From an uncultured Ruminococcus sp. (GTDB lineage: Bacteria > Bacillota > Clostridia > Oscillospirales > CAG-272), in contig CAZVYZ010000001.1 in NCBI GenBank assembly GCA_964630695.1, forward strand, positions 8,816-72,815: a DNA stretch of 64,000 nucleotides, in the 5' to 3' direction. The position numbers were made by a program, and so were the translations under genes. The notes beneath the pieces are model-generated. The model saw nothing but the letters and a program-made list of their open reading frames with translations. It searched no databases and was not told where the DNA came from. Within the stretch, counting starts at the first letter, position 1. Every line of letters starts with the position of its first letter. Shown here in pieces: positions 9,614 to 39,394 of the stretch.

Positions 9614-9870
9614 TTTTGGGGAAAGAAAGACCTTGGAGGGAAAGACCTTGGAGGGAGAGAGGGTCCTCTTGAAAGAGGACCCTCTCTCCCTCCAAGCCTC
9701 CCTCTTACCCCGAGAACTTCCCCACAGAACCCCGTCATGACGGGAGCGAATTTTTGATTCGCTTTCGTTACGGCGGGGTTCTGTGGGGAAGTTTTTTGTT
9801 TTGAGGGAGGGGGACTTTGAAAGGTGCGGCTTCGCGCTCGCTTTGTGGGGGCTTATGACGTTTTGCTGTG
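9614..9870. repeat. Cluster of long perfect hairpin modules downstream of rplS
   Basis: GGAGGGAGAGAGGGTCCTCTT gaa AAGAGGACCCTCTCTCCCTCC; CTTCCCCACAGAACCCCG...CGGGGTTCTGTGGGGAAG; duplicated AAAGACCTTGGAGGG. Confidence 0.8.
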
Positions 9871-9872
9871 CA

Positions 9873-10170
9873 GATTTATCCCCCCTCATCAGTCGCTTGA
9901 CGCGACAGCTTCCCCCCGAGGGGAAGCCTTTTTACAAGATTCCTTTCGTACTATGCACCAAGGCAAATGGATGAAAATTTGATGCGTTGTTCTATTTACC
10001 TCTTGCTCTTACTACTTACTACTTACTACTTACTACTTACCACTTACTGCTTACTGCATGGAATATTTACTTACAACGTGAAGTTGTATTTACTATGTTC
10101 GCACAACATAAAGAAGGCTTCCCCCTTGGGGGAAGCTGTCGCGTAAGCGACTGATGAGGGGGGATAAATC
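9873..10170. repeat. Inverted-repeat element E2: IRs 9873-9928 and 10116-10170 around a 187-bp core, flanked by TGTGCA direct repeats
   Basis: Same 53-bp IR as E1 with one extra T in the left arm and a few substitutions in the right arm; TGTGCA lies immediately outside both ends. Confidence 0.9.
10009..10057 (+). repeat. Heptanucleotide microsatellite (TTACTAC)x4 plus 3 variant units inside the E2 core
   Basis: TTACTAC TTACTAC TTACTAC TTACTAC TTACCAC TTACTGC TTACTGC. Confidence 0.9.
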
Positions 10171-10470
10171 TGTGCATCCTACAGTTATTATACCCGACGA
10201 TAGGTTCTATGCACCCCTCCCTTTGTTAAGGCAACACCGCGCAATTCGCAATCGGCGCACTCGCTCGCGCCTTTCCCGTCATACTTCACAAAAATCCTTG
10301 CCTGTAGCCGCGCTACAGCCTGCGAATTTTTGTATTGTCTGACGAAAAATCCGGCTTCGCGATTTCACCATCGGAATTGCGCGGTATTGCCTTAAAGGTT
10401 TTTGAAAGGGGCAAGGGGAAACTTCTTCCAAGAAGTTTCCCCTTGCACATCCCTCGCATCCCCGCGTCCT

Positions 10471-11307
10471 TTATTTTCTGCACTCCTTGAGGGCGGCAAA
10501 GCGACAGGCGGCAGCGTAGGCGCGGGCGAAGTAGTCGGCATCGTCCATGCTTGCGTAGCGGTCGTTGTCGTGGCGGTTCGGTTTGGAGTCGCGGTTCAGT
10601 TCAAAGGTCAGCGTGCCGTTGTAACCGTGCGCGTTGAGACGGTCGGCAATGTTGTCCCAGTCGGCGATTCCGTCAAACGGGAGCAGGTGCAGGTCGTCTG
10701 TCCATGTAATGTTGCCGTCAAAATTGCTGATGCCCAGATTGTCGTTGATGTGCGTGCAGACCAGACGGTCGCCGTAAAGCGCAAGCATATCCCGACTGCG
10801 GTTGTAGCACATCTCGTGTCCCGTGTCCCAGCAAAAGCCGAGGTTGGGGTGGGAGGGGAAGGCGTTCATCAGCGCGGCGAGGTACTCTTCGCCCTCGGTG
10901 TTCTCCAGCGCCACCGTGACCCCGCATTTCTCCGCTTCCGCAAGAATTTTTGCAAAATTACGCGGACCTTCGGGCGTTGGCGTGTGGTCGCGGAAGCCGA
11001 TAAATGCGTGCATGACCATAATCGGTACCCGAACGGCGGCACAGGCGCGCAGACATTCAATCAGTTCCGATACCACGTCATCCGCTTCGGGACCCGATTT
11101 CCAGAGTCGGTCGGCTTTTCCGAACGGAGCGTGGACCGACTGAAAGTCCAAGCCCAGTTCGTCCGCTTTTTCGCGGAGCGGTGTGAGGTCCATCCCCCGA
11201 TCCCACTCGATGAAGAAGCCCTCAAAGCCGATTTTCTTCCATTCCTCCATGCGCTGTAGCGCAATGGCGCGGTCGTTGATTCCGAGGCAGAGTTTGGTTT
11301 TCCACAT
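10471..11307 (-). CDS. Sugar phosphate isomerase/epimerase, xylose-isomerase-like TIM barrel (AP_endonuc_2 fold)
   Basis: 278 aa from MWKTKLCLG...; GAGGAGGA RBS 8 nt upstream of this ATG; metal-ligand style motifs VHAPF, ALEN, WDTGH; lies 13 nt after the helicase stop. Confidence 0.7.
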   Translation of the reverse strand: MWKTKLCLGINDRAIALQRMEEWKKIGFEGFFIEWDRGMDLTPLREKADELGLDFQSVHAPFGKADRLWKSGPEADDVVSELIECLRACAAVRVPIMVMHAFIGFRDHTPTPEGPRNFAKILAEAEKCGVTVALENTEGEEYLAALMNAFPSHPNLGFCWDTGHEMCYNRSRDMLALYGDRLVCTHINDNLGISNFDGNITWTDDLHLLPFDGIADWDNIADRLNAHGYNGTLTFELNRDSKPNRHDNDRYASMDDADYFARAYAAACRFAALKECRK

Positions 11308-11320: not shown

Positions 11321-13552
11321 TCAGTATTCTTTGAAAATTTCCAGAATTCGCCTGCCTGCTTCCTCTGCATTCAGTTTGTCAACGGCGAACGCGTGACGGA
11401 GCAGGTCGGTCGGAATGTAATCGTCGTATTTTTCAAACAGCGGGACCTCGCCCGAAGAGACCAATTCGTGCGGGTCGATTCCCGTTGCGGCTTGGTCGGC
11501 GAGAACGTGCATCAACTCGTAATCCGTCCCTTTGCTCATCTTGAACGCGATGAAATAGCACCCCTCGTATTCCACGCCGGTGATGCCGAACCGCGCGCTC
11601 TGCCCCTGAATCAGCCGTCGGACCGTGCGGAACGAGCGCGTCCCGAGCCACGGAAAGAGACAGTAGGAGTAGCCGCCGAGGTGAATCAGAGAATGCTCGG
11701 TCAGCCCCGTATTCCGCGCAACGTGGCGCGCCACCTCCAACCGCTTCTGCGCGTTCGGCTTGAGGTAGGGGTAGACCGTGTCCTCGCGCAGGACCTGCCG
11801 CATCCGCTCTGCAATGCGGGTGTGGACCTCGCCGTAGTCGCCGGGCCACGAGACTTCCATTTTACCCTCAACCGGCTGAACGTATATCAGTTTCCGCTGA
11901 ATGTCGAGTTCCTCCACCTCCCAGACCCGCCCTGCAAGTGCGAAACGGTCGCCGACGGGCGGCGGAGTGGTGATGGTCCCGATTTCGTCGGACCCCGCAC
12001 GGACCGTGTAGTCCTCGCTGTCTTTGAACACCGCGTAGAATTTGAAACTTTTCAGAAGCCGCTCGCCCGCAAGTCCGACAATCACGGTTTTCTCCTCGGT
12101 CATTTCCAGAAAATCATTGTTCAGCATGGAGAGGAGCAGAACCTTGTAGTCCTCCTTGCTGACCGCCGCAAACGGGGGGAGCGCCAACACGCGCTCGGCA
12201 AGCCGACGCACGGTCAGTTCTCCCGATGCCGCCAGAACGCTCAGCGTCTGGTGAAAGAGCAGGCTGAACGGCTGTTTCCGCACGATAGGCGGCTCAATGA
12301 AGCGTTCCTCGCGGTACAGTTCGATGATGGCAATCGCCTTGAGCAACTCCCAAGGCATCAGATGCGGCAGGGGCGTGTTCGGGAGCGGGTCCTCCTCGCG
12401 AAAGACCATCATCATCTCGGGCGGCTGTCCGCGTCTGCCCGAGCGCCCGAGCCGTTGCAGAAAACTCGTGACCGAGTTGGGGGATTGGTTTTGCAGGACC
12501 CGCTCCAACTTTCCGATGTCGATGCCGAGTTCCATCGTAACAGTTGCGCAGGTGACGGTTGGGGGACCCTCCTCGTCTTTCATTTTCAGTTCGGCTTCCT
12601 CGCGCAGAGCCGCCGAAAGGTTGCCGTGGTGAATCAGAAAATCATCGGGGTCGCCGCGCAGGCGCGCAATCTGGCGGAACGTCGCGCAGAGGTATTCGGT
12701 CTCCTCGCGGGAGTTGGAAAAGACCAATGCCCGCTTGCCCTGCACGCAGTCGTACATGAACGTGTAGCCCGCGTCGTAAACAATCGGCGCGGGGGAGGGA
12801 GACGGCTCGTCTTTCGGCTCGGTCGCCTGTTCCTCGCGGGGGGACTGAACGTAGAAATGCTCCAATCCCAAGCGCCAACGCAGGGCGCCTTGTGCAATGC
12901 GCGGAATGTCGGTCGACCGTCCCGAGCCTGCCGAGAGCCATGCCGCCGCCAGTTCGGGGTCCCCGACCGTTGCGGAAAGCCCTACGCGGCGCGGGTGGTA
13001 GCCGATGCTCCGACCGATGCGGGCAAGTTGACAGAGAATCTGGTTGCCGCGGTCCGAACCGGTCAGCGTGTGAATCTCGTCTATCACCACGAACCGCAGG
13101 TCACCGAACAGGCGCACGATGTCGTTGCTTCGGTTGATGAGCATCGCTTCCAATGATTCGGGGGTAATCTGAAGAATTCCGCGCGGGCGTTCGAGCAGTT
13201 TCTTTTTGTGGGACTGCGCCACGTCGCCGTGCCAGTGCGTCACGGGAATTCCGCTTTCCTCCAACAGGTCCGCAATGCGCCCGAACTGGTCGTTGATGAG
13301 ACTTTTCAGGGGGGCAATGTACAGCACCCCTATGCTCTCGGGCGGATTTTCACAGAGCAGGGAGAGGATGGGGAAGAACGCCGCTTCGGTCTTGCCGCTC
13401 GCGGTGGAGGAGGTCAGAAGCAGGTTGTTTTCGCTCCCGAAGACGGATTCCGCCGCCGCAACCTGCACGTCACGCAGGGAATCCCAGTTGTGGGCATAGA
13501 TGAATTCCCGGATGAAGTCGGGAAACCGCCCGAAAATCTCGGCTCCTCTCAT
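11321..13552 (-). CDS. sngC: Lhr-like DEAD/DEAH-box SF2 helicase (Shango SngC-type)
   Basis: 743 aa; motif I SSTASGKTEAAF, motif II VVIDEIHT, motif III LSATVG, motif VI QRLGRSGRRG; ATGA start/stop overlap with the upstream ATPase gene. Confidence 0.75.
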   Translation of the reverse strand: MRGAEIFGRFPDFIREFIYAHNWDSLRDVQVAAAESVFGSENNLLLTSSTASGKTEAAFFPILSLLCENPPESIGVLYIAPLKSLINDQFGRIADLLEESGIPVTHWHGDVAQSHKKKLLERPRGILQITPESLEAMLINRSNDIVRLFGDLRFVVIDEIHTLTGSDRGNQILCQLARIGRSIGYHPRRVGLSATVGDPELAAAWLSAGSGRSTDIPRIAQGALRWRLGLEHFYVQSPREEQATEPKDEPSPSPAPIVYDAGYTFMYDCVQGKRALVFSNSREETEYLCATFRQIARLRGDPDDFLIHHGNLSAALREEAELKMKDEEGPPTVTCATVTMELGIDIGKLERVLQNQSPNSVTSFLQRLGRSGRRGQPPEMMMVFREEDPLPNTPLPHLMPWELLKAIAIIELYREERFIEPPIVRKQPFSLLFHQTLSVLAASGELTVRRLAERVLALPPFAAVSKEDYKVLLLSMLNNDFLEMTEEKTVIVGLAGERLLKSFKFYAVFKDSEDYTVRAGSDEIGTITTPPPVGDRFALAGRVWEVEELDIQRKLIYVQPVEGKMEVSWPGDYGEVHTRIAERMRQVLREDTVYPYLKPNAQKRLEVARHVARNTGLTEHSLIHLGGYSYCLFPWLGTRSFRTVRRLIQGQSARFGITGVEYEGCYFIAFKMSKGTDYELMHVLADQAATGIDPHELVSSGEVPLFEKYDDYIPTDLLRHAFAVDKLNAEEAGRRILEIFKEY

Positions 13553-14946
13553 AGGTCAAGTTCGTCGATGGTGTAGGTCTTGGCGGGTGCAGGCTCGGCG
13601 GCGGACGCGTTCTGTTTTTCGTTCCCGTTTCTGTCATCGTCCTCGTCGCTGTCCCCGTGGCGGAGCGTGACCGCACTGCTCACCACATCGTCAAAGGTCG
13701 CCTCGGGGTTCTGCATCAGAATGTTCAGCACCGTCATGTAGTCGCGGAGCATTTCGCGCGGCGTGATGAGGCTGTCGGCGCCCGCGCGGGAGAGACAGAT
13801 TTGCAGAAAGCGTGTCATTTGTTCCTCGTTCACGCGCGGGGAAATCCCGTAATTCTGCGCGTAAAGTCCCGTGATGCGGACAATCAGCGCGTACAACTCG
13901 TCATCCGAGAGACGGCGCAGACGGATGACGGGACCGATGAGGTTTTTGTAGCCCTCGGGCGAAAAACGGCTGTCGCACAACCGACTGCGGAGCGCTTCGT
14001 AACTGAACAGTCCCCGCCGCGTGTCCTCCAGAAACTGCGGGGTTCCGCCGAGAATCAGCGCAAGCCCCGGGGCGCGCCCCTGCAGGGTGTCATTGAACAT
14101 GGAGAGAATCTTTTCGTAGTTGTTCTCGCGGCTCACGCGGTGCGGGATTTTGTAAAGGTTGACGCACTCGTCGATGAAGACCACCAGACCGCGGTAGCCC
14201 ATCACCCGCGCCATGGATGCCCAGAGTTTGAGAAAATCGTACCAGTTGTCATCATCGATGATGACCGACACCGAAAAGCCCAGTTCGTTGCGTGCTTCGG
14301 TTTTGGTGGAGAATTCCCCGCGGAGCCAACGCAGACAGGCGCTCTTGCGCGCGTCGTCCCCCTCCGTGTAGGCGCGGTAGTAAGCGGTGAGAACGTGTGC
14401 GAAATCGAATCCGCCGACTAAGAATTCCACCTCCTGCATCGCATTCAGGACCCGACGGTTCAACTCGGGGGAAAAGCGCGCGTCCTCGGGCGCAATCCCG
14501 CCGGCGGCAATGTCGGTCTGCAGCCCCGTAATCCATCGCGCAATCACGCGCGGCAGAGCGCCGCCGTCGGGTGCGGCTTTGGAGGCAAGGTTTTTCATCA
14601 GTTCGCGGTAGGTCGCAACGCCGCTTCCGTTGCTGCCGTAAAGACGGCGCTCGGGGGAGAGGTCGGCATCCGCAGTCAGAAAGCCGCGTTCCAGAGCGTA
14701 GCCGCGAATCAGTTGCATCAGAAAACTTTTGCCGCTTCCGTATCTGCCGATGAGAAAGCGCATCGACCCGCCGCCGTCATTGACCGCTTCCAGGTCGGAA
14801 AGCAGTGCCGCAATTTCGTCCTTTCTGCCAATGGCAAGGTAAGGCGCGCCCGAACGCGGGACCACGCCCGCCGAAACCGACGCGAGAAGCGAGGACAGAA
14901 TCCGCCGTGGGACCTGCCGGATGTCGGGATTGGTGTTCTGTTCCAT
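13549..14946 (-). CDS. sngB: DUF2791 / BREX-type ATP-binding protein (Shango SngB-type ATPase)
   Basis: 465 aa; Walker A FLIGRYGSGKSF, Walker B LVVFIDE; overall resemblance to the DUF2791 ATPases that accompany TerB-N/TerB-C proteins. Confidence 0.7.
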   Translation of the reverse strand: MEQNTNPDIRQVPRRILSSLLASVSAGVVPRSGAPYLAIGRKDEIAALLSDLEAVNDGGGSMRFLIGRYGSGKSFLMQLIRGYALERGFLTADADLSPERRLYGSNGSGVATYRELMKNLASKAAPDGGALPRVIARWITGLQTDIAAGGIAPEDARFSPELNRRVLNAMQEVEFLVGGFDFAHVLTAYYRAYTEGDDARKSACLRWLRGEFSTKTEARNELGFSVSVIIDDDNWYDFLKLWASMARVMGYRGLVVFIDECVNLYKIPHRVSRENNYEKILSMFNDTLQGRAPGLALILGGTPQFLEDTRRGLFSYEALRSRLCDSRFSPEGYKNLIGPVIRLRRLSDDELYALIVRITGLYAQNYGISPRVNEEQMTRFLQICLSRAGADSLITPREMLRDYMTVLNILMQNPEATFDDVVSSAVTLRHGDSDEDDDRNGNEKQNASAAEPAPAKTYTIDELDL

Positions 14947-14953
14947 ATCAGTA

Positions 14954-16657
14954 TCAGTCTCCTTTCCGTATTTCGGAGAGAATGGTATTCAGTCGGTCGC
15001 GGTAATCGTCAAGGACCCGCCAACCGTCGCCGTTGTCCTCCAGAAGAATATCGCCGGATTCTTCGGCGGAGCGTTCGTTGATTTCGTCCGCGAGCGCGTC
15101 CGGAAGCGTGCCGAGCACCTGTGCCGCCGCGCGGATTTTTGCGTTGTCCTCTTCGCGCACAGCCGAGAGAAAAGCGGCGTAGCGGGCATAGGGGGAGGGC
15201 GTGTCGGATGGCTGCTCCGCCGGCTTTTCCTTTGTCTGCGGTACGACAACAGGGGCGGGAACTTCTGCGGCTGCGACACCGTCCGTCTCTTCCTGCTCAA
15301 ACGCTTCCACAAGCCGCTCAGTCGTGTCCCATGAAGCGCGTTCGATTTCGGCGGCGCGTGCGGGGTCAAGCGGCAGAGCGGGGAGGTCGTAAAGTTTCTC
15401 GTATGCGGGTGGTTCCGCGGGCTTGACGGACCGCCGCGGCGGTTCCTTTTTCGGCAGGCGCGCGGCGCATTCCGCGTCAATCGCTTCGCGCACTTCGGCA
15501 GGGAGCGCATAGACCGTCATGCGGGAGCGGATGCCGAGCGTGGCGCGGAGTTTGTTTTCGGTGTATTTTACGATGTCGGTAACGAGAAAGCGCAATTCGT
15601 GTGAGCGGGAAAAGGAGCAGTAGGTGACTTCCAGTTTCCTGCGGTTTTCCGAGGCGCAGAGCGCGCCGTTGTAGGCAAAGCGCCCGAGTTTGCTGTCGTC
15701 CATTCCAAGACCCGCAAAGAGTTTCCCGTCCCGACTGAGCCGAGTCATCACGGCGGACAGCACGGCGGGAATCAGGCGGTCAAACTGCGGGAGGTTTTCG
15801 GGCGTGCAGAACTTGCTTTTGCGGTAGTCGTAGTTGGAGGCAAAGCAGAGCAGTGCCTGCAGATACCCGTCCTCACCTCCCGCAACGTAGAATTCTTTCA
15901 GGGTACAGTGCCGCATGATTTCCGTGCGTTCCTCGTGGGACAGCGCGGGCGGCGGCAGGCGGTGGATGAGACTGTAGTCGCAAATCCATTCGGGCAGGTA
16001 TCCCGAAAGTTGCGGGTAAGCCGTGCGGTAATTCTGCCAGAGACGGACCAGCACCGCCTGCCCCTCGGCGGTATTCCCGTGTTCCGCAAGGTTGATAATC
16101 TCAAACGCAAGCAGGAGCAGGTAACTGTAGTCGGTCGCGGGACAGACCCCTTTGCGGATGCAGTCCCGCAGGCAAAGATACCAGTCCAGTTGCGAACGGG
16201 TCATCTGGTCGTATTGCGGGACGTAGGAGAAGAACGGAACGGGCTTTGCGGGGCTTCCGTGACGGGTTGCAAGCGTTCGCGCGGTGCGGCAGAACGCGTC
16301 GTAGTAGGTGTGGGAAGCGTGGGGGAGATAGATTGCCACGCGGTGGAGCAGTGCGCTGTCCGGCTCATATTCCGCAATCGGAGCGGGAGCGGGCGGCGGA
16401 GCGGGAAAGACCGAGCGGCGGACCGAAGTTCCGGAAAGCGGGGCTTCGTGCGGGTGGATGACCGTTCCCTCGGGCGGTGGCGGAATCGGCTCCGCACGGT
16501 GGGTCGGCGGCTCGGTTTCGCGCGCCGCTACGGTGACTTCCTCTGCTTCGGTGTTCCGGCTCCGTTCCGGTATTTTTCGAACCGGCAAAAGTGCGTCAAT
16601 GTCCCAGAAACGGTCCAGTTCTGCGGCGCGGTTGCGCTTTTCATCATCCCGTTCCAT
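14954..16657 (-). CDS. sngA: TerB-N / TerB-C domain protein (Shango SngA-type)
   Basis: 567 aa; TerB_N signature FFSYVPQYDQMTRSQLDWYLCLRDCIRKG..DYSYLLLLAFEIINL; C-terminal TerB_C-like LDPARAAEIERASWDTTERLVEAF and LPDALADEINERSAEESGDILLED; GGAGGTG RBS. Confidence 0.7.
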   Translation of the reverse strand: MERDDEKRNRAAELDRFWDIDALLPVRKIPERSRNTEAEEVTVAARETEPPTHRAEPIPPPPEGTVIHPHEAPLSGTSVRRSVFPAPPPAPAPIAEYEPDSALLHRVAIYLPHASHTYYDAFCRTARTLATRHGSPAKPVPFFSYVPQYDQMTRSQLDWYLCLRDCIRKGVCPATDYSYLLLLAFEIINLAEHGNTAEGQAVLVRLWQNYRTAYPQLSGYLPEWICDYSLIHRLPPPALSHEERTEIMRHCTLKEFYVAGGEDGYLQALLCFASNYDYRKSKFCTPENLPQFDRLIPAVLSAVMTRLSRDGKLFAGLGMDDSKLGRFAYNGALCASENRRKLEVTYCSFSRSHELRFLVTDIVKYTENKLRATLGIRSRMTVYALPAEVREAIDAECAARLPKKEPPRRSVKPAEPPAYEKLYDLPALPLDPARAAEIERASWDTTERLVEAFEQEETDGVAAAEVPAPVVVPQTKEKPAEQPSDTPSPYARYAAFLSAVREEDNAKIRAAAQVLGTLPDALADEINERSAEESGDILLEDNGDGWRVLDDYRDRLNTILSEIRKGD

Positions 16658-16693
16658 TTTCGCACCTCCGTTTTCGTGTTTCTTGAATATTTC

Positions 16694-16722
16694 ATTATAT
16701 CATGGTTTCGGACGTTTGTCAA
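16694..16722 (-). promoter_or_regulatory. Consensus sigma-A promoter for the TerB/ATPase/helicase operon
   Basis: Minus strand: TTGACA (16722-16717), 17-nt spacer, TATAAT (16699-16694). Confidence 0.7.
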
Positions 16723-16750: not shown

Positions 16751-16789
16751 ACAGAAAAATCTCCCCTGCACGCATCGCGTGCAGGGGAG
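16751..16789 (-). terminator. Rho-independent terminator of ychF
   Basis: CTCCCCTGCACGC atc GCGTGCAGGGGAG followed on the minus strand by a T-rich run. Confidence 0.8.
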
Positions 16790-24297: not shown

Positions 24298-24479
24298 CCG
24301 ATATGCTCCGTCGGAACCGCACCATAGACTGGCAGAAGAAAGAGACTGCCCGCGCGGGAATGCGGAAGATGGTCAAGCGGCTACTCAAAAAGTACAAATA
24401 CCCGCCGGAGAAATACGAGGATGCCATTGAAACCGTCATGAGCCAGTGTGAACTTTGGACGGATCAGGCGGTGATGTAA
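24282..24479 (+). pseudogene. hsdR: Type I restriction enzyme HsdR, last ~65 aa only
   Basis: Other frame reads [61 protein letters not shown], the conserved HsdR C-terminal tail. Confidence 0.8.
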
Positions 24480-24499
24480 AAGATTTTGGAGTGTGTGTG

Positions 24500-27241
24500 T
24501 TGGATACGAAAAATAATTTGATCGTAGCAAAAGGGAAGCCGATCACCTCTCATGTGACGCACTGTGCTTACGATCGTAATACAAAAATGTGGAACGTGAC
24601 CTTTCAAAACGGGAAGACCTTCCGTTATAACTATGATAATATTGAATGGCTTAGAAATCCAATCAGGTTGGATCCTAAGTCGTATCATATATCCCATAAA
24701 GGAAAACCTTTTGATAACGTTAGCGCAATTTTGTCGTTTTCGGGAAAAAAAGAGGAGTATTGGCATATATGTTTTTCAAATGGTTATGAAAACGATTATT
24801 CCGTTTGTGAACTTTGCGTTGAAAGGTCTTGCTTGGAAGATGACGGAGCTCAAAAGATATTTTCCTATTTGCGACAGGTTGCGGAGAATACCGATCTGAA
24901 AACAGAGGACGGTGCCACAATTTTGGTGAACCAATATAAAAAAATTGACTTTATCGGTGAAAAAAACGCGCTTGCGGTTTATTTGAATCCCAATCAATAT
25001 TATGCAGAGACCGGGCTTGACGCGAGTTTGCTGATTTTTCCGTTTGGTTGCAATCAAAGTCAGTACCATGCCGTTGAACAGGCGATTCTGAATCATGTGA
25101 GCGTGATCGAAGGTCCCCCCGGTACAGGTAAGACGCAGACCATTCTGAATATTATTGCAAATTTGCTGATTCGTAAAAAGACTGTGCAGGTTGTCAGCAA
25201 CAATAATTCTGCCATAGAAAATATTATTGAGAAGCTTTCTTCTCCGAAATATGGCTTGGATTTTTTTGTTGCGTCCCTTGGGCGAGCGGAGAAAAAACAG
25301 CAGTTTCTTGATTCTCAAACGGCATGCTATCCGGATTTTTCTAAATGGCGAACAAACCGGGGCGGGAAACCAATAAGCAAAGTCGATATTCAGGCCTGCA
25401 GTGTTGCTCTTCAAACTGTTTATGAAAAAAGGGATCGACTTGCAAAGTTGATGGAAGAATCTGAAAATGTAAAAACAGAACAAAAGCACTTTCTTTCCGT
25501 TATGGCTGACTTGGGTGTGAAGGCGGTGGATTTCCCGAAGGACCTCTCGTCGGCGGTGATTTTACGTATCTGCCAAGAGTTCGAAGCGTTCCTGCACGGT
25601 CGAAGCAAGATGGGATTTTGGGGAAAGCTCCGATTTCGATTTATGTATGGTGTTTCGTTCGGTTTTTTTGAAAGTCAAAATGCCGACTCCTTGATTCCGG
25701 GAATGCAGATGGCGTATTATCGAAAAAGACTATCCGAACTCCATGTAGAAACAGCACGATTGCAAAGTGAATTAAAAAAGCTTGATGCCGACAAGTTGAG
25801 CAAGCAATTTGAGGAGGATTCGCTCTGCTATTTTCGGAAAGTTCTTTCGGATCGATATCATGAAAAAGGTGCGCGAATTGTTTTTGAGAAACAGGATCTG
25901 TGGATGGAACCGGAAATATTTCTGAAAGAGTATCCCGTTGTGTTAAGTACAACCTATTCGGCAAGGAGCAGTCTTGGAAAAAAAGCGCAATATGATTATG
26001 TTATCATGGATGAAGCGTCGCAGGTTGATGTAGCTACAGGAGCGCTCGCCTTGTCCTGTGCCCGCCATGCGGTAATTGTCGGAGACTGTAAACAGCTTCC
26101 TAATATCGTCACAAAACAGCAGGAGGAACTGCTTGAGGGAATATTCAAAGCGAATCAGGTTCCAATGGCGTATGATTGCGTAAAATACAGTTTTCTGTCT
26201 TCCATTTGTTCTTTGTTGGAAAAGCGGATTCCAAGGACGATTTTGCGTGAGCATTACCGCTGTGATCCCCTGATTATAGGTTATTGTAATCGAAAATTTT
26301 ATCATAATGAGTTGATCGTTATGACGGAGGCACATGAGGATTCATTGGAACTGGTGACGACTGTTGCGGGAAATCACATGCGAGAGCGAACCAATTTAAG
26401 GCAGGCAGAGGTCATTAAACAGGAAGTTCTTCCGACGCTGACTTGTCCGCATTATGAGATCGGAATCATTTCTCCGTATCGGTCTCAAGCGGAGTTGCTG
26501 AAAAGTGAAATCAATGACCCCGAAATCGAAATTGCTACGGTACATAAATTTCAGGGACGCGAAAAGGATGTTATTATTTTCAGCACCACCGACGATATTG
26601 TATCGGAGTTTTCTGATAATCAGAACTTGTTGAATGTTGCAGTTTCCAGAGCGAAAAAGAAGTTGATCGTGGTTGCATCGGAAATGGAGCAACCGATTGG
26701 AAGCAATGTCGGCGATCTGATTGGATATATCCGATATTATAATGGGGTGGAAACGCATAGCGCGGTAAGTTCTGTATTTGATTACCTTTATTCGCAAAAC
26801 AGGGAAAAACGGTTGGAGTATTTGAAAAAGCACAGGCGCATTTCCGAATTTGATTCCGAAAATCTGTTTTTTTCTTTGATCGAGGATGAATTAAAAAAGC
26901 GGAAAGAGGCACTTGGTGTAATCTGTCATCAACCATTATATTTATTATTCCGCGATTTAAGCAAACTGAATACGGAAGAGACTCGATTTGTCAGAACTGG
27001 ATTGTCGCATCTTGATTTTTTGATTTATAATAATGTTACAAAACGCCCACTTTTGGCGATTGAGGTGGATGGTTATCGTTATCATAAGTCGGACTCCGTG
27101 CAGGGCGAACGTGACCGACTGAAAAATCACATTTTGGAGGTTTATCACCTTCCACTCATCCGATTCAAAACCAACGGCAGTGGGGAACAAGAAATGTTGC
27201 AGGACGCTTTGAATCGGATTTGCGGAGGAAAGAGTGGATAA
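24500..27241 (+). CDS. Upf1/DNA2-like SF1 helicase (AAA_11/AAA_12) with unknown ~200-aa N-domain and C-terminal DUF2726-type PD-(D/E)xK nuclease
   Basis: Walker A IEGPPGTGKTQT, motif II VIMDEASQV, VIVGDCKQLPN, LREHYRCDPLIIGYCNRKFY, VHKFQGREKDVIIFS, LLNVAVSRAKKKLIVV. C-terminus SHLDFLIYNNVTKRPLLAIEVDGYRYHKSDSVQGERDRLKNHILEVYHLPLIRF. Start uncertain: TTG 24500 or GTG 24497 after GGAG; the ORF is open from 24455. GC is much lower than the flanks. Confidence 0.8.
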   Translation: MDTKNNLIVAKGKPITSHVTHCAYDRNTKMWNVTFQNGKTFRYNYDNIEWLRNPIRLDPKSYHISHKGKPFDNVSAILSFSGKKEEYWHICFSNGYENDYSVCELCVERSCLEDDGAQKIFSYLRQVAENTDLKTEDGATILVNQYKKIDFIGEKNALAVYLNPNQYYAETGLDASLLIFPFGCNQSQYHAVEQAILNHVSVIEGPPGTGKTQTILNIIANLLIRKKTVQVVSNNNSAIENIIEKLSSPKYGLDFFVASLGRAEKKQQFLDSQTACYPDFSKWRTNRGGKPISKVDIQACSVALQTVYEKRDRLAKLMEESENVKTEQKHFLSVMADLGVKAVDFPKDLSSAVILRICQEFEAFLHGRSKMGFWGKLRFRFMYGVSFGFFESQNADSLIPGMQMAYYRKRLSELHVETARLQSELKKLDADKLSKQFEEDSLCYFRKVLSDRYHEKGARIVFEKQDLWMEPEIFLKEYPVVLSTTYSARSSLGKKAQYDYVIMDEASQVDVATGALALSCARHAVIVGDCKQLPNIVTKQQEELLEGIFKANQVPMAYDCVKYSFLSSICSLLEKRIPRTILREHYRCDPLIIGYCNRKFYHNELIVMTEAHEDSLELVTTVAGNHMRERTNLRQAEVIKQEVLPTLTCPHYEIGIISPYRSQAELLKSEINDPEIEIATVHKFQGREKDVIIFSTTDDIVSEFSDNQNLLNVAVSRAKKKLIVVASEMEQPIGSNVGDLIGYIRYYNGVETHSAVSSVFDYLYSQNREKRLEYLKKHRRISEFDSENLFFSLIEDELKKRKEALGVICHQPLYLLFRDLSKLNTEETRFVRTGLSHLDFLIYNNVTKRPLLAIEVDGYRYHKSDSVQGERDRLKNHILEVYHLPLIRFKTNGSGEQEMLQDALNRICGGKSG

Positions 27242-27565
27242 TTCAGAAATCCCGAAACAGCGTCTTACCGGGAGAGTTTGGTGCGATTTTTCGCCCGTTC
27301 GCATCCGGAATTTTGCTGTTCAAAATCTGTACCTGAGAACCATTTCTTCGGCATCATGCTTTGCAGCATTCATCTCCTGCGCTCAACGGAGCGGGTCTGC
27401 GGCTTTCAGGGACTCTGTAATGCCTCTTTCGGCTTTCAGGCGGTCAAGGATGAGGACAACCGCTGCTCGCACTTCTGCATCGATTTTGGCAAGTTCTGCG
27501 GCAAGTGTGCCGCTTGTCAGCAGAAAAGTATAGGTTCCTCAGCGATGGCGCTTTAGGTATGCCAG

Positions 27566-27955
27566 GTGCAACTGCCCGTATTTTCCGATTGTAATCGGTT
27601 TCTGTTCCGGCAGGGTAAGGAAGCCGCGCGCAAGAAGGCACGTGACGTCGCAGAAAAGTTACGCTCCATGAGGCTGAATGAGGCAGCCAAAAAGGTGGAG
27701 GACGGCATTGAAGAGACCTTGACGTACATGGATTTCCCGTCACAACACAGGCTGAAGATCCGGACAAACAATGTTATTGAACGTATGAATCGTGAAATAC
27801 GACGCAGAACGAGAGTTGTTGGTACATTCCCTGATGGAAAGTCTGCTCTGATGCTGGTCTGCGCCGGACTGCGGTATGTTTCGGGAAAGGAGTGGGGCTC
27901 AAAGCGGTATCTTTGCATGAAATATTTGACTGAAGCTGCGACAGAAGTGGCATAA
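27566..27955 (+). pseudogene. IS256-family (mutator-type) transposase, C-terminal stub
   Basis: AEKLRSMRLNEAAKKVEDGIEETLTYMDFPSQHRLKIRTNNVIERMNREIRRRTRVVGTFPDGKSALMLV matches the IS256 Tnp C-terminus; the N-terminal ~270 aa are absent. Confidence 0.8.
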
Positions 27956-28137
27956 ACACAGCAACTAAATAGCATCTGCCGTCGACGGAGTCAAGGGTCA
28001 AGATGAACGGTCTTGCGACCGCCCTTGACACCGCCGCCGACAGATGCTTTCAGACAATTAAGCGGAGCGTAGTCGCTCCATCGCCGGAGTATCGGCGCAC
28101 TACTTCATTTTATCAGAAACGAATTTGCGAAAAATAC

Positions 28138-28167
28138 TTGACAGTACCCATAAAACCGTGGTATAAT
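28138..28167 (+). promoter_or_regulatory. Sigma-A promoter with extended -10 for the dfx operon
   Basis: TTGACA, 18-nt spacer, TGgTATAAT. Confidence 0.65.
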
Positions 28168-28195
28168 AAATAAAAAGACATAGGAGGTATTTATT

Positions 28196-28579
28196 ATGTG
28201 TGATAACAACAAGTTTTATATTTGTGAGCATTGCGGTAATCTGATCGGTATGATCCACGATGCCGGTGTTCCCATGATGTGTTGCGGACAGAAGATGACT
28301 AAGCTTGAGCCCGGCGTTGTTGAAGCAAGCCACGAGAAGCATATTCCCGTCGTTTCGATTGATGGAAATATCGTTACCGTAACGATCGGCTCGGTTGAGC
28401 ATCCTATGCTTGAAGAGCATCACATTGAATGGGTATATCTTCAGACCGATAAGGGCGGCCAGCGCAAGTGCTTGGAGGTTGGCAAGCCTCCCGTTGTAAC
28501 CTTTGCGCTCTCCGATGAGAAGCCCATCGCTGCATACGAATACTGCAATCTCCACGGCTTGTGGAAGGCAGACATCTGA
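28196..28579 (+). CDS. dfx: Desulfoferrodoxin (superoxide reductase)
   Basis: 127 aa; N-terminal CEHCGN...CCG centre I, HIPV and EHHIEW...C..HGLW centre II. Confidence 0.9.
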   Translation: MCDNNKFYICEHCGNLIGMIHDAGVPMMCCGQKMTKLEPGVVEASHEKHIPVVSIDGNIVTVTIGSVEHPMLEEHHIEWVYLQTDKGGQRKCLEVGKPPVVTFALSDEKPIAAYEYCNLHGLWKADI

Positions 28580-28599
28580 GCTTAGGAGGATTACATATC

Positions 28600-29112
28600 A
28601 TGATGAATGCGAAAGTACGTGATCTTTTGAATCAGCAGATCAACAAGGAGTTTTACTCCGCATATCTTTACCTTGATTTCTCCAACTATTTCGAGGATGC
28701 AGGTCTTGTCGGCTTTGCCAACTGGTATAAGGTTCAGGCTCAGGAGGAGCGCGATCACGCAATGCTGTTCTATCAGTATCTCCAGAACGAGAACCAGAAG
28801 GTTACTCTCGAAGCGATCGCAAAGCCTGACAAGGTGTTCACCTGCCACATGGATGTTCTGAAGGCTGGTCTTGAGCACGAGGAGTACGTTACTTCCTTGA
28901 TCAACGACATTTATGCAGCAGCGTATGAGGTAAAGGATTTCCGCACCATGCAGTTCCTTGACTGGTTCGTTAAGGAGCAGGGCGAAGAGGAAACCAATGC
29001 AAACGATATGATCACCAAGATGGAGCTGTTCGGTGGCGATCCTAAGAGCCTTTATATGCTCAATCAGGAGCTGGCAGCACGTGTTTACACGGCGCCCTCC
29101 TTGGTCCTTTGA
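28600..29112 (+). CDS. ftn: Ferritin
   Basis: 170 aa from MMNAKVRDLLNQQINKEFYSAYLYL; ferroxidase residues in QAQEERDHA; AGGAGGA RBS before the 28600 ATG (the track ORF start 28561 is rejected). Confidence 0.9.
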   Translation: MMNAKVRDLLNQQINKEFYSAYLYLDFSNYFEDAGLVGFANWYKVQAQEERDHAMLFYQYLQNENQKVTLEAIAKPDKVFTCHMDVLKAGLEHEEYVTSLINDIYAAAYEVKDFRTMQFLDWFVKEQGEEETNANDMITKMELFGGDPKSLYMLNQELAARVYTAPSLVL

Positions 29113-29134
29113 TACATAAAGTAGGAGGTAGAAT

Positions 29135-29293
29135 ATGAAATACGTATGTGATGTATGCGGATGGGAATATGACGAGGAGCTCGGCGATCCGGATAACGGC
29201 ATCGAGCCCGGCACGAAGTTTGAGGATCTTCCCGAAAACTTTGAGTGTCCTCTTTGCGGAGTAGGCAAGGATAATTTCTCGAAAGCAGAATAA
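29135..29293 (+). CDS. Rubredoxin
   Basis: 52 aa [52 protein letters not shown] (two CxxCG knuckles); below the ORF-track length cut-off; GGAGG RBS. Confidence 0.9.
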
Positions 29294-29311
29294 TTTTAGT
29301 TTTAAGCTTAG

Positions 29312-29348
29312 GCGGCAGGGAGAAATCTCTGCCGCTTGTCTTTTAGTT
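29312..29348 (+). terminator. Rho-independent terminator of the dfx-ftn-rub operon
   Basis: GCGGCAG..GAG aaat CTCTGCCGC followed by TTGTCTTTT. Confidence 0.7.
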
Positions 29349-29491
29349 TTTTGTTGTGCATATCTTATTTTGTAAACTATTGTTGACGAAAGACGAAAAA
29401 AGTGGCATAATATTTAGAACAAATTTTCTACTTTTTGCGTTATAATAATTAGCAATTGTAAAAGGGGGCAATATGAAAAAACACAGTAAGA

Positions 29492-29908
29492 ATGCTATTC
29501 AATATAAAAGGGGAGCGTCGCTCAAAAAAATCGGAGGTACTATTACGGTCGATAAGCGCGATCCTTTGTTTGGTGTTCGTTCTTGCTGCGTGCGTCGGTT
29601 GCACCTCATATGCTTCATCTGATGAGGTTGCTACACGGAATGCAGAACTTAACGATGCAATTGCTGAACTTGATTCTCTCAAAGAAGGTTACGAAGCGGC
29701 TCAAAAAGAAATGGATGCCTTAAAGCCCGGTTGGGAAGAGGCTCAAAAGGAGTTAGACGCTCTTAAGACAAGCAACGAAACTGCGCAACAGGAAATTACA
29801 TCATTAAAGACCAGTAACTATAATCATAGCAAAATCATCACTTCACCTATAAGTGATGATTTTATTATATTTCGTTTTCACCCGACGTTTTATTGCAGGA
29901 TCTCTTAA
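29492..29908 (+). CDS. Putative lipoprotein with coiled-coil repeats, probably 3'-truncated
   Basis: Lipobox LAACVGC; repeats EAAQKEMDALK/EEAQKELDALK; the ORF tail reads through a terminator hairpin (about 29831-29863) that belongs to the convergent gene. Confidence 0.35.
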   Translation: MLFNIKGERRSKKSEVLLRSISAILCLVFVLAACVGCTSYASSDEVATRNAELNDAIAELDSLKEGYEAAQKEMDALKPGWEEAQKELDALKTSNETAQQEITSLKTSNYNHSKIITSPISDDFIIFRFHPTFYCRIS

Positions 29909-30771
29909 AGTCGAGAACTTTCAATGATGCTTTTTGCAATATTGAACAGCCTTATACATTCCGCTTCAAACGACTTGTCGTCAAGCGCTGCCGATGGCAG
30001 AGTCTCAAGCGAAAAAACACCGTCGAAGCCGACCTCATCCAAGGAACCTAAAAAAGCCTTCCAATCGATAATTCCTTTAGTAGGGAACATATGAGCGTCC
30101 CGATCTCCCGCGTTGTCGTGAACGTGCAATACTTTGATTTCCGTACCCAGCTTGCGGACGGAATCGGAAACGGATAAATCCGGAAATACCGCAACGTGTC
30201 CCGTGTCAAGACAGATTTTAAAATATGGGTCGTTTATCACTTTTATGAATTCAAGGACCTTTGTCGGGGTAGCCATGGAGAAACGGCGAATGGGCATGTT
30301 TTCAAGGCAGATTGTAACGTTCTGTAATCTTGCGTATTCAAGTAATTCGGACATGAACTCAATGTTAAGTTCCCATGTCTTTTGAGCGTTTTCAGTGCCA
30401 TCCTCCTCAACCCCATAAGGCATGATCGGATGCACCACCCAATATTTGCAGCCGAGCAGTCGTGTGGCAAAAATGGATCTCTTCATTTTTGCCATTCTTT
30501 CTCGTCGCAATTCAGCTGTTGAATCCTGTGGCGGCCATCTCCAAGGTCCGTGAACCTGTGAGATCTCAATATTTGCAAGATCAGCGGCTGCCTTTTCTTC
30601 AAGCATTTTTTCCTTCAGCTCCGAATCGTTTAACTTGTATATTTCGATATCAGTATCCGACATATTGTAGTCTACGGCAGAAAAACCGTGCTGTGCTATT
30701 TTTGCAAATTTTTCGTTGCCGAAGCGGGCATATTCGTTGTTATACGGTTGAAGACAAATACCTATTTTCAT
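29905..30771 (-). CDS. Sugar phosphate isomerase/epimerase (xylose-isomerase-like TIM barrel)
   Basis: 288 aa; QVHGPW, CLENMP, LDTGH, HVHDN motifs. Confidence 0.75.
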   Translation of the reverse strand: MKIGICLQPYNNEYARFGNEKFAKIAQHGFSAVDYNMSDTDIEIYKLNDSELKEKMLEEKAAADLANIEISQVHGPWRWPPQDSTAELRRERMAKMKRSIFATRLLGCKYWVVHPIMPYGVEEDGTENAQKTWELNIEFMSELLEYARLQNVTICLENMPIRRFSMATPTKVLEFIKVINDPYFKICLDTGHVAVFPDLSVSDSVRKLGTEIKVLHVHDNAGDRDAHMFPTKGIIDWKAFLGSLDEVGFDGVFSLETLPSAALDDKSFEAECIRLFNIAKSIIESSRL

Positions 30772-30932
30772 GTTTTTCTCAATCTCCTCCTGAAAACTTA
30801 ATATTACAATGTAGAATTATATCATATTTTAAAAATAAAATAAATACCTTTCAGCAATTTTATTTCTCGTTTTATTAAAAATACAAATGAGCAGAAACGG
30901 TATCGCCATAAGAATATTATCGATTAAAGCCT

Positions 30933-31775
30933 TTATCGGTATTGTTGCCTGTATTCGCGCGGGGTAACGGTCATTTCCTTTTTGAAAATCTGGTAGAAAA
31001 ATGCGGGGTCGGAATAGCCTACGATGTTGGCGATTTCCGCTATGGTTTTGTCGGTCTTTTCCAGAAGTTCGCAGGCTTTTTTGATCCGTACCTTCTGCAG
31101 ATAATCGCGGAAGGTCATACCTGTATTTTTTGTAAAGATGATGCTGATGTTGGAAAGACTGAAATTGACATTTTTACAGATCTCGGAAAGAGAAAGTGGC
31201 TGTGCGTAATTGCTGACAACATAGTTCTTGATATAGCTGGTAATGTCTTGTTTGCCGTCATCTGTAATTTCGTTGCGAACAAGATAAATGAGTGCGCAGG
31301 ATAGGTAGGAGCGAAGAATCTCCGTATACTCCCTATAATGTTCATTGTATTCATCAAGCATTTGTTGCATCAGAAACAAGACTTTTTTGTCATTGTCGTG
31401 GTAGATGTTCCGGGTTGGCTCGTTTTCAAACTCATTATTGTTGAAAGAGATCAGGAATTTGTTGATCATGTCGCTGAACTGATGCGTGTGAACCAACGCA
31501 TTGTCCAGAAAACTCGGAAGGAACATACAGTTGATAATAGAAAATTCCTCTCCAATTGACGCAGAGATGTAACTGTGAGTTCGATTTATGTCAATCAGAA
31601 AATAGTCTCCTTCGTTTATCATAACTTTTTTGTTTTCGAAAGTGTGATATGCCCTTCCTTCAAGTACATAAACGAATTCGAAAAAACAGTGGCTGTGCGG
31701 AGGAGTGGAAATGTGGTGGTCGCACAGCTCCAGACAAATGCCGTCCTGCAAGACTTTTTCGGCGCACTGCTCCAT
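30933..31775 (-). CDS. AraC-family transcriptional regulator (cupin sensor plus HTH)
   Basis: C-terminal LSEICKNVNFSLSNISIIFTKNTGMTFRDYL...IAEIANIVGYSDPAFFYQIFKKEMTVTPREYR; start uncertain (ORF open to 31856). Confidence 0.8.
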   Translation of the reverse strand: MEQCAEKVLQDGICLELCDHHISTPPHSHCFFEFVYVLEGRAYHTFENKKVMINEGDYFLIDINRTHSYISASIGEEFSIINCMFLPSFLDNALVHTHQFSDMINKFLISFNNNEFENEPTRNIYHDNDKKVLFLMQQMLDEYNEHYREYTEILRSYLSCALIYLVRNEITDDGKQDITSYIKNYVVSNYAQPLSLSEICKNVNFSLSNISIIFTKNTGMTFRDYLQKVRIKKACELLEKTDKTIAEIANIVGYSDPAFFYQIFKKEMTVTPREYRQQYR

Positions 31776-31899
31776 CTGGCTATCACAAATGATTACGGAT
31801 ATGTAAGTGCCCGTGAATATGCAATGGTAACGAATGATACGGTACGTACCAATCAAACCTATCCTAAGTTTGATTCCTCGCTCCAGATTATGAAGCCGG

Positions 31900-32090: not shown

Positions 32091-32111
32091 TACTCAAGGG
32101 AATACATAAAA

Positions 32112-39372: not shown

Positions 39373-39394
39373 CCGTAATAAATAACGTTAATAA

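What the first reader, a model, noticed from the sequence alone, without database searches (positions are those of the whole stretch)
11321..16722. Complete TerB-N/TerB-C + DUF2791 ATPase + Lhr-like helicase operon (Shango-type antiphage system) inserted next to ychF
Three tightly packed minus-strand genes (7-nt gap, then a 4-nt ATGA overlap) follow a consensus TTGACA-17-TATAAT promoter. (i) A 567-aa protein has a TerB_N signature and two TerB_C-like segments. (ii) A 465-aa ATPase has Walker A GRYGSGKS and Walker B VVFIDE, of the DUF2791 / BREX-ATP-binding type. (iii) A 743-aa DEIH helicase has motifs I, II, III and VI intact. This is the TerB-associated triad predicted by comparative genomics and later validated as Shango (SngA/B/C). 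All catalytic motifs look intact, the operon sits right after the ychF terminator, and a second defence-like locus lies 7 kb away. The mechanism of Shango, and the role of its TerB membrane-proximal sensor, remain unresolved.
Basis: partly seen in the sequence, partly recalled or inferred. Interest (0 to 1): 0.65.

Follow-up and report, generated by a model that had tools for sequence, protein, structure and literature searches.

The report
Intact Shango antiphage operon beside ychF
This is a complete, ordinary-looking copy of the already known three-gene Shango anti-phage defence system (TerB-like protein, ATPase, helicase) in an uncultured pig/ruminant gut Clostridia bacterium; it adds a new host lineage and a few mechanistic hints, not a new kind of system.

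Summary
Three minus-strand ORFs (567, 465 and 743 aa; 7-nt gap, then ATGA overlap) follow a 12/12 extended -10 promoter placed after the ychF terminator. PADLOC models identify them as SngA (3e-51), SngB (1.5e-166) and SngC (4.7e-241), so this is a canonical Shango triad. Shango is experimentally validated in E. coli and P. aeruginosa, and its mechanism is still unknown.

The host is an uncultured Oscillospiraceae-like Clostridia bacterium from pig gut. None of 80 related ychF loci carries Sng genes. Within this species and its sister lineage the operon is fixed and has co-diverged with ychF.

New details:
- SngA evolves 3-7 times faster than SngC.
- None of the three proteins has a membrane segment or a nuclease fold.
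- The SngC C-terminus is Lhr/BrxHI-like.
- The SngA C-terminus looks like a winged helix.

- Pfam finds one TerB_C domain, not two.
- The "second defence locus" is an eroded hsdM fragment, an SF1 helicase-DUF2726 gene and a transposase remnant.
- A TIM-barrel gene 13 nt downstream is probably co-transcribed but is a common backbone gene.

Verdict: a new member of a known kind, of modest interest.

The parts
16761..16789 (-). Intrinsic terminator of the upstream ychF gene (13-bp stem, 10 G-C pairs, T-run). It insulates the Shango promoter from ychF transcription.
16694..16722 (-). Sigma-70-type promoter TTGACA-17-TATAAT with a TGn extended -10 (12/12 match)
16665..16669 (-). GGAGG ribosome-binding site, 7 nt upstream of the sngA ATG
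14954..16657 (-). sngA: 567-aa TerB_N + TerB_C protein. It has a conserved N-terminal ELDRFWDIDALLP helix, a Pro-rich disordered linker (about residues 30-90), a confident alpha/beta core (about 90-400) and a TerB_C whose last ~75 residues model as a winged-helix-like fold. It is the fastest-evolving gene of the three.
13549..14946 (-). sngB: 465-aa BrxC_BrxD-family (ex-DUF2791) ATPase, a family described as ORC/Cdc6-type AAA+; Walker A GRYGSGKS (K73), Walker B VVFIDE
11321..13552 (-). sngC: 743-aa SF2 DEIH helicase of the Lhr/BrxHI type. It has two RecA-like domains with motifs I, II, III and VI, then a winged helix, a small beta-barrel and an alpha/beta C-terminal domain like the Lhr core. 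No nuclease fold was found.
10471..11307 (-). Adjacent 278-aa xylose-isomerase-like TIM-barrel gene (Pfam AP_endonuc_2). It has its own GGAGG site, starts 13 nt after the sngC stop, and no terminator lies between the two genes. It is probably co-transcribed, but I judge it a backbone gene and not a Shango component.
10111..10170 (-). First terminator-like hairpin downstream on the operon strand (GCTTCCCCCAAGGGGGAAGC + T-rich tail, 10136..10117), inside a ~60-bp high-copy repeat. It is the likely end of the transcription unit.

Best explanation
The locus is an intact chromosomal Shango (SngA-SngB-SngC) anti-phage defence operon in an uncultured pig/ruminant-gut Oscillospiraceae-like Clostridia bacterium. 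A strong, probably constitutive promoter placed just after the ychF terminator drives it. Transcription probably reads through into an unrelated TIM-barrel backbone gene.

Shown here: the identity of the three proteins; intact catalytic motifs; purifying selection on all three genes; operon order conserved in all related loci; patchy distribution across relatives.

Inferred mechanism, about 0.3 confidence on its own. SngB, an ORC/Cdc6-type AAA+ ATPase homologous to BrxD, acts as an ATP-dependent loader or activator. Its target is SngC, an Lhr/BrxHI-type helicase, presumably a 3'-5' translocase like Lhr, with winged-helix, beta-barrel and Lhr-CTD-like DNA-binding modules. The pair would act on phage DNA or its replication intermediates. 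SngA is the fast-evolving TerB_N/TerB_C protein and would be the sensor or specificity adaptor that tells the pair when and where to act, possibly through a C-terminal winged-helix-like module. No nuclease domain is detectable. Protection would therefore come from ATP-driven remodelling or stalling of phage DNA replication, or from recruiting host nucleases, and not from direct cleavage by the system.
For: Identity: PADLOC SngA 3.2e-51, SngB 1.5e-166 (BrxD only 1.5e-51), SngC 4.7e-241 (BrxHI 1.2e-123). Pfam TerB_N, TerB_C, BrxC_BrxD, DEAD and Helicase_C are all above cut-off. Motifs are intact and invariant across 13 SngC orthologues.

Operon: 7-nt gap, 4-nt overlap, promoter and ribosome-binding site.

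Functionality: dN/dS is 0.02-0.25 for all three genes in five pairwise comparisons.

Accessory status: 0/80 related ychF loci carry Sng genes, while the HK-RR-ychF synteny is kept. SngB relatives lie on 697 plasmids, mostly conjugative.

Order A-B-C is conserved in every sufficiently long locus among the related loci fetched.

Sensor role of SngA: its amino-acid identity falls 84/67/45/37% where SngC stays at 98/91/79/73%. Its dN is 3-7 times that of SngC. tblastn finds SngA on only 4 plasmids, against 697 for SngB.

Loader-helicase pair: PMC12839542 describes BrxD as an ORC/Cdc6 AAA+ ATPase tightly paired with BrxHI and proposes helicase loading. The SngC C-terminal model (pLDDT 86.9) best matches the Lhr core 5v9x (probability 1.00, TMq 0.49) and shows WH + beta-barrel + alpha/beta CTD.

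Anti-phage activity of homologous Shango systems is experimentally shown in E. coli and P. aeruginosa PA14.
Against: No experiment exists for this copy or for any Firmicutes Shango. RNA evidence is limited to a few metatranscriptome contigs inside sngA, and these could be DNA carry-over. The mechanism is inferred from domain homology only, and the literature held here reports no Shango mechanism. The winged-helix assignment for the SngA C-terminus rests on local Foldseek matches with high probability but non-significant E-values (0.2-1). Fast evolution of SngA could reflect relaxed constraint on its long disordered linkers and not an arms race. The operon is fixed and has co-diverged with the backbone in this lineage, which is less typical of mobile defence cargo.
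Confidence: 0.85

Rival explanations
1. SngA is a membrane-proximal sensor, as the first reader and the literature speculate. On this view Shango watches the cell envelope for phage injection or membrane damage and then triggers the ATPase and helicase, perhaps with abortive infection.
For: Millman et al. suggest membrane surveillance for TerB-containing systems. A 2025 preprint notes that TerB proteins may be amphitropic. Two other Clostridial Shango loci embed cell-wall or glycan enzymes, a polysaccharide deacetylase and a GH39.
Against: None of the three proteins has a hydrophobic segment (maximum Kyte-Doolittle over 19 residues is 1.27). Pfam detects TerB_N and TerB_C but not the TerB domain itself. 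The only recurring structural match of SngA is a DNA-binding-type winged helix. The partner proteins are DNA enzymes.
Confidence: 0.15
2. This is a four-gene Shango variant in which the TIM-barrel protein (10471-11307) is a functional accessory or effector. AP_endonuc_2 is the fold of endonuclease IV.
For: The gap is 13 nt, the gene has its own GGAGG site and no terminator intervenes. The gene stays next to sngC in L085, where the upstream neighbourhood differs. Another AP_endonuc_2 gene flanks sngC in L087/L094. dN/dS is 0.08-0.11.
Against: Its family has 3158 members. Homologues at 57-63% identity sit in unrelated contexts (feoAB, bacA-serA, glycyl-radical microcompartment) with no Sng genes. 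It is absent from all Shango loci with SngC below 97% identity. The L087 gene is on the opposite strand and too divergent for tblastn to find. No NCBIfam nfo hit exists for this protein; only sub-threshold CbiR and IolE hits do.
Confidence: 0.06
3. This is not a defence system but a lineage-specific housekeeping DNA-repair or replication-restart module built around an Lhr-like helicase.
For: The closest solved relatives of SngC are the repair helicases Lhr and MrfA. The operon is fixed in six metagenomes and has dS equal to ychF. No integrase or transposase lies next to it.
Against: NCBIfam Lhr-type equivalogs are far below cut-off (197.6 against 850 bits). It is absent from 80/80 related loci. 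The family is frequent on conjugative plasmids. Homologous triads protect against phage experimentally. SngC groups with BrxHI, DruE and DpdJ in a defence-specific clade.
Confidence: 0.04
4. This is a remnant of a type 2 BREX (Pgl) system that kept only the BrxD-BrxHI pair.
For: BrxD and BrxHI are the second-best PADLOC hits. Pfam names the ATPase family BrxC_BrxD.
Against: The Sng models score 3-4 times higher in bits. NCBIfam BrxD scores 173.9 against a cut-off of 350. No PglZ, PglX, BrxC or PglW was found in the annotated genes from about 7.6 kb to 40 kb of the window, nor in the gene tables of the sister contigs. The TerB_N/TerB_C gene is present and translationally coupled.
Confidence: 0.02

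Closest known systems
Shango (SngA/SngB/SngC) of E. coli (Millman et al. 2022) and P. aeruginosa PA14 cDHS1 (Johnson et al. 2023, NAR 51:4995)
   Same: The three protein families are the same, in one operon, with full-length matches to the PADLOC Sng models (SngB 4-425/439, SngC 5-713/720, SngA 81-526/528). The ATPase and helicase motifs are intact.
   Different: The host is an uncultured gut Clostridia bacterium, not a Proteobacterium. SngA is very divergent: tblastn finds no proteobacterial plasmid copy, and the N-terminal 112 residues, including a conserved ELDRFWDIDALLP motif, lie outside the PADLOC model. The operon sits in a single-system slot next to ychF and not in a large defence hotspot. 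It is fixed and vertically inherited in its lineage.
BrxD-BrxHI pair of type 2 BREX / Pgl (Goldfarb et al. 2015; PMC12839542)
   Same: There is a homologous ORC/Cdc6-type AAA+ ATPase and a homologous SF2 helicase with wHTH, beta-barrel and Lhr-CTD-like modules, tightly linked as a pair.
   Different: No PglZ, PglX, BrxC or PglW is present, and a TerB_N/TerB_C protein takes their place. There is no methyltransferase, so no obvious epigenetic self/non-self marking.
Lhr-core and MrfA/YprA DNA-repair helicases (PDB 5v9x, 7lhl, 6znp)
   Same: These are the best solved relatives by sequence (5.4e-27) and by fold for the C-terminal WH/domain-4 region.
   Different: Scores are far below the NCBIfam equivalog cut-offs. 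The operon partners and the accessory distribution are those of a defence system.
TerB-N/TerB-C + DUF2791 + SF2 helicase triad predicted by Anantharaman, Iyer & Aravind 2012 (Mol Biosyst 8:3142)
   Same: This is the same gene triad. The prediction is cited by both Shango papers.
   Different: Nothing substantive; that prediction is what was later named Shango.

Membership tests
Shango (PADLOC / DefenseFinder definition) | SngA: protein with TerB_N and TerB_C domains | tested here: met
   Pfam TerB_N 3.8e-15 (56.6 bits, cut-off 25) and TerB_C 6.7e-11 (43.1, cut-off 26.3); PADLOC SngA 3.2e-51
Shango (PADLOC / DefenseFinder definition) | SngB: DUF2791 / BrxC_BrxD-family P-loop ATPase with Walker A and B | tested here: met
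   PF10923 6.7e-157 over 1-411/414; PADLOC SngB 1.5e-166; GRYGSGKS and VVFIDE present
Shango (PADLOC / DefenseFinder definition) | SngC: SF2 DEAD/DEAH (Lhr/BrxHI-like) helicase with intact motifs | tested here: met
   PADLOC SngC 4.7e-241 over 5-713/720; DEAD 2.4e-26, Helicase_C 1.4e-14; motifs I, II, III and VI invariant in 13 orthologues
Shango (PADLOC / DefenseFinder definition) | All three genes adjacent in one transcription unit | tested here: met
   7-nt gap and 4-nt overlap, a single promoter upstream; the same order in every sufficiently long related locus
Shango (PADLOC / DefenseFinder definition) | Confers resistance to phage infection | not testable with these tools
   Shown only for the E. 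coli and P. aeruginosa PA14 homologues
BREX type 2 (Pgl) | Core genes PglZ (BrxZ), PglX methyltransferase and BrxC, plus PglW, in the locus | tested here: not met
   The annotated neighbours are ychF, a two-component system, a TIM barrel, rplS, a flippase, coaD-like, rsmD-like and uvrC. NCBIfam BrxD scores 173.9 bits against a cut-off of 350.
Ter (tellurite-resistance) stress cluster | TerB domain proper (PF05099) and terZ/A/C/D/E neighbours | tested here: not met
   Only TerB_N and TerB_C are detected at E <= 0.01; there are no Ter genes among the neighbours
Lhr / ligase-associated DEXH repair helicase | Score above the NCBIfam equivalog cut-off over the full length | tested here: not met
   TIGR04121 scores 197.6 bits against a cut-off of 850; PRK13767 scores 168.3 against 849; each covers only about the first half of the model

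The most novel reading that the evidence does not exclude
In gut Clostridia, Shango may have recruited sugar-active enzymes as lineage-specific fourth components. Examples are the TIM-barrel 'sugar-phosphate isomerase/epimerase' coupled 13 nt after sngC here, a polysaccharide deacetylase in L102/L103, and a GH39 glycosidase in L108 and its relatives. The last two are embedded between sngB and sngC with 4-nt overlaps. That would tie Shango sensing or its effector action to glycans, either cell-envelope polysaccharide or sugar-modified phage DNA. Together with the winged-helix-like SngA C-terminus, it would give the first handle on what Shango senses.
Probability: 0.07. Interest if true: 0.55.

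Novelty: new member of a known kind. Interest (0 to 1): 0.27.

Why it matters
Shango is a validated defence system with no known mechanism, and all experimental work so far is in Proteobacteria. This copy shows an intact system, under purifying selection, in an abundant uncultured gut Clostridia lineage. The comparative data give three testable pointers:
- SngA is the rapidly diversifying component, so it is the candidate specificity determinant.
- SngB-SngC is a conserved loader-helicase pair shared with type 2 BREX.
- No component carries a recognisable nuclease or membrane anchor.

None of this changes the classification. It is useful for annotation and as a hypothesis for whoever works on Shango, but it would not surprise a specialist.

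Tried and rejected
1. TIM-barrel gene as a fourth Shango gene. This was suggested by its tight coupling and its persistence in L085. I rejected it after a homologue search (3158 family members) and three context look-ups showed unrelated neighbourhoods, and after finding it absent from the more distant Shango loci.
2. A hidden nuclease in the SngC C-terminus. I modelled residues 400-743 separately (pLDDT 86.9). Only Lhr-core, MrfA and winged-helix matches came up.
3. A known fold for SngA. Foldseek against the PDB and BFVD gave no significant global match, and sequence search of the PDB gave nothing meaningful for SngA or SngB.
4. A recent mobile insertion. I looked for empty-site joints in six metagenomes and found none. 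dS equals that of ychF. There are no integrase or transposase genes at the borders.
5. Phage carriage. There was no SngB match in 50,697 phage records.
6. Transcript evidence. Only four short RNA-library contigs were found, all within sngA, too little to define the transcript.
8. The Rfam scan of the region gave only spurious miRNA hits on a hairpin.
9. The 'second defence locus' as support for a defence island turned out to be a truncated hsdM, an unclassified SF1 helicase-DUF2726 gene and a transposase fragment.
Full report
OBSERVATION. The sngA stop is followed by a 7-nt spacer and the sngB ATG, with an AAGGAGA Shine-Dalgarno inside the end of sngA. The sngB stop and sngC start overlap as ATGA. 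Upstream, ychF ends at 16794 and is followed by a 13-bp-stem terminator at 16789-16761. Then comes a TTGACA-17-TATAAT promoter with a TG extension at 16722-16694, which is the only 12/12 match in the 9.5 kb scanned. A GGAGG lies 7 nt before the sngA ATG. Walker A GRYGSGKS and Walker B VVFIDE are present in the ATPase. Motifs I (GKT), II (DEIH), III (SAT) and VI (QRLGRSGRR) are present in the helicase, and they are invariant in 13 orthologues.

IDENTITY. Pfam gives TerB_N and one TerB_C for protein 1. For protein 2 it gives BrxC_BrxD (the former DUF2791) at 6.7e-157. For protein 3 it gives DEAD plus Helicase_C, with a weak WH_Lhr match. PADLOC's own models are the top hits: SngA 3.2e-51, SngB 1.5e-166 and SngC 4.7e-241, with BrxD and BrxHI well behind. 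NCBIfam has no equivalog above cut-off: BrxD scores 174 bits against 350, and Lhr-type models score about 200 against 850. The neighbours are ychF, a divergent response-regulator/histidine-kinase pair, a TIM-barrel gene, rplS, a polysaccharide flippase and, further on, coaD-like, rsmD-like and uvrC genes. No BREX core gene and no Ter gene is present. This is therefore a canonical Shango triad. Shango was shown to protect E. coli (Millman et al. 2022) and P. aeruginosa PA14 (Johnson et al. 2023). No mechanism is reported in the literature I could search.

HOST AND POPULATION. The closest species-level genomes by YchF (68-88% identity) are uncultured Oscillospiraceae, Eubacteriales and Clostridia MAGs from ruminant and other animal guts. 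The exact locus occurs mainly in pig-gut metagenomes. None of the 80 related ychF loci has an Sng gene within 10 kb, although the HK-RR-ychF arrangement is widely kept. In the nearest relative (L002), the 7.2 kb between ychF and rplS is replaced by 1.85 kb holding a spoIIAA-spoIIAB-sigF-like operon. Within the species, six metagenomes show single contigs running from ychF through sngABC into the TIM gene at flank depth, with no empty-site joint. A sister lineage (L091: YchF 98%, SngA 84%) has the same arrangement. dS of the sng genes (0.43-0.71) matches that of ychF (0.57). So the operon is accessory at the family level but old and fixed in this lineage. SngB relatives lie on 697 plasmids, mostly conjugative, and on no phage record. 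An annotated Firmicutes example sits between a relaxase gene and an IS110 transposase gene on a Clostridium estertheticum plasmid.

EVOLUTIONARY PATTERN. All three genes are under purifying selection (dN/dS 0.02-0.25). SngA diverges much faster than its partners. Across loci, SngA/SngB/SngC identities run 84/94/98, 67/84/91, 58/84/86, 45/78/79 and 37/75/73%. The dN of SngA is 3-7 times that of SngC. tblastn with SngA finds four plasmids, with about 31% identity confined to the TerB_N core, whereas SngB finds 697. The order sngA-sngB-sngC is kept in every locus long enough to show it.

STRUCTURE-BASED HINTS. The SngA model has mean pLDDT 77.5. It is confident for residues about 90-400 and 490-567 and disordered at 30-90 and 458-485. 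It has no significant global match in the PDB or BFVD. The only recurring local match is a winged-helix DNA-binding domain of about 75 residues (LysR-type; probability up to 0.99 but E 0.2-1). By secondary structure this fits the last part of TerB_C: three helices, a beta-hairpin and a final helix. A model of SngC residues 400-743 (pLDDT 86.9) best matches the WH/domain-4 part of mycobacterial Lhr (5v9x: probability 1.00, TMq 0.49). It shows a winged helix, a five-stranded small barrel and an alpha/beta C-terminal domain, which is the order described for BrxHI. No nuclease fold appears. None of the three proteins has a TM-like hydrophobic stretch. SngA and SngB have no solved relative by sequence.

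MECHANISM (inferred). SngB-SngC is homologous to the BrxD-BrxHI pair, for which helicase loading or activation by an ORC/Cdc6-type AAA+ ATPase has been proposed. SngA is the variable partner. I therefore propose this sequence of events: SngA senses the infection cue or the foreign DNA; SngB, using ATP, loads or activates SngC on that DNA; SngC translocation then disrupts phage replication, or exposes the DNA to host nucleases. The parts that are shown are the domain identities, the intact motifs, the selection pattern and the linkage. Everything about order of action, substrate and outcome is inference, and I give that mechanism about 0.3. The main rival is the membrane-surveillance idea, which this sequence does not support but cannot exclude.

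THE FOURTH GENE. A 278-aa AP_endonuc_2/xylose-isomerase-like TIM-barrel gene starts 13 nt after the sngC stop. It has its own GGAGG site, and no terminator lies between the two genes. It stays next to sngC in L085, where the upstream genes differ. I tested whether it belongs to the system, and it does not appear to. Its family has 3158 members, and homologues at 57-63% identity lie in unrelated contexts. It is missing from all Shango loci with SngC below 97% identity. It has no endonuclease IV signal. It is best read as a backbone gene that the operon reads into.

COMPARISON AND VERDICT. The locus meets every testable defining feature of Shango. It fails those of BREX type 2, the Ter cluster and Lhr repair helicases. 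It is a new member of a known kind in a new host clade. Interest is modest. The added value is the context, three corrections (one TerB_C domain, a degraded 'second locus', no membrane signal) and the SngA-as-variable-sensor pattern.

Noticed in passing
window 9871-9933 and 10111-10170; also 305-373/461-535 and 58495-58554/58710-58764: A ~60-bp repeat containing a GCTTCCCC..GGGGAAGC hairpin occurs as inverted pairs about 240 bp apart at three places in the window (86-96% identity). In six gut metagenomes the 9900-10430 stretch has 25-80 times the depth of the adjacent operon, and contigs break there. This points to a high-copy MITE/REP-like element at the downstream edge of the Shango/TIM block.
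   Followed up: partly
window 10226-10395: A self-complementary element of about 170 bp (arms 69.7% complementary) with very high metagenome depth (180-330x on short contigs). It is a second repeated intergenic element of unknown nature.
   Followed up: partly
window 10008-10050 and 10459: A tandem TTACTAC-type heptamer run is one unit shorter in run X5. A 9-nt insertion (CCCCGCGTC) after 10459 is seen in X4 and X5. These are small length polymorphisms in the intergenic region.
   Followed up: no
It holds a 203-aa N-terminal fragment of a type I HsdM methyltransferase (covering 3-200 of a 932-position model), a 928-aa SF1 helicase (AAA_11/AAA_12; only the helicase core matches MkoA/MkoC) with a C-terminal DUF2726, and a Mutator-family transposase fragment. 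The sister contig L082 has the hsdM fragment plus an rve_3 fragment but no helicase, so the region varies between strains and is eroded.
   Followed up: partly
window ~24300-41000: GC content drops from about 0.53 to 0.41-0.47 right at the truncated hsdM and stays low for about 17 kb. That stretch holds AraC-type regulator, GDSL lipase, rhamnosidase-like and melibiase-like genes and a second AP_endonuc_2 TIM-barrel paralogue (29905-30771). It is probably a horizontally acquired carbohydrate-utilisation island.
   Followed up: no
L002 11161-12725: In the closest species-level relative, the slot between ychF and rplS holds a sigma-factor / anti-sigma kinase / STAS anti-anti-sigma operon (spoIIA-like) in place of Shango. 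No homologue of it exists anywhere in the 64-kb window, and it sits at other positions in L011, L017 and L024.
   Followed up: partly
L102/L103 13218-13916; L108/L113/L114/L117 ~13326-14654; L127: Other Clostridial Shango operons carry a polysaccharide deacetylase (PF01522) or a GH39 glycosidase embedded between sngB and sngC, each overlapping the sngC start by 4 nt. In L127 the GH39 gene and sngC are broken into fragments, so that copy is decaying.
   Followed up: partly
L129 10581-13127; L125 15051-17885: A UvrA-like ABC ATPase lacking the UvrA interaction domain follows sngC by 18 nt on a Clostridium estertheticum plasmid. A canonical-looking UvrA follows sngC by 32 nt in L125. This is possibly another recurrent neighbour of Firmicutes Shango.
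   Followed up: no
window 16580-16657 (SngA residues 1-25): An N-terminal motif ELDRFWDIDALLP (W18 and L23 invariant in 29 homologues) is conserved across Clostridial SngA. It lies outside the region matched by the PADLOC SngA model, which aligns only from residue 113. A variable Pro-rich disordered linker follows it.
   Followed up: partly
window 9631-9716: A long near-perfect hairpin lies just after rplS, with a second hairpin at about 9720-9800. It produced a cluster of spurious sub-threshold miRNA hits in Rfam and is probably the rplS terminator region.
   Followed up: no
BFVD entry A0A8S5LZC6 (not in the window): A 43-residue phage protein annotated 'TerB-C domain (fragment)' matches the SngA model locally (36% identity, rmsd 1.7 A, probability 0.98, E 0.5). 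This may be a phage-borne TerB-C piece.
   Followed up: no
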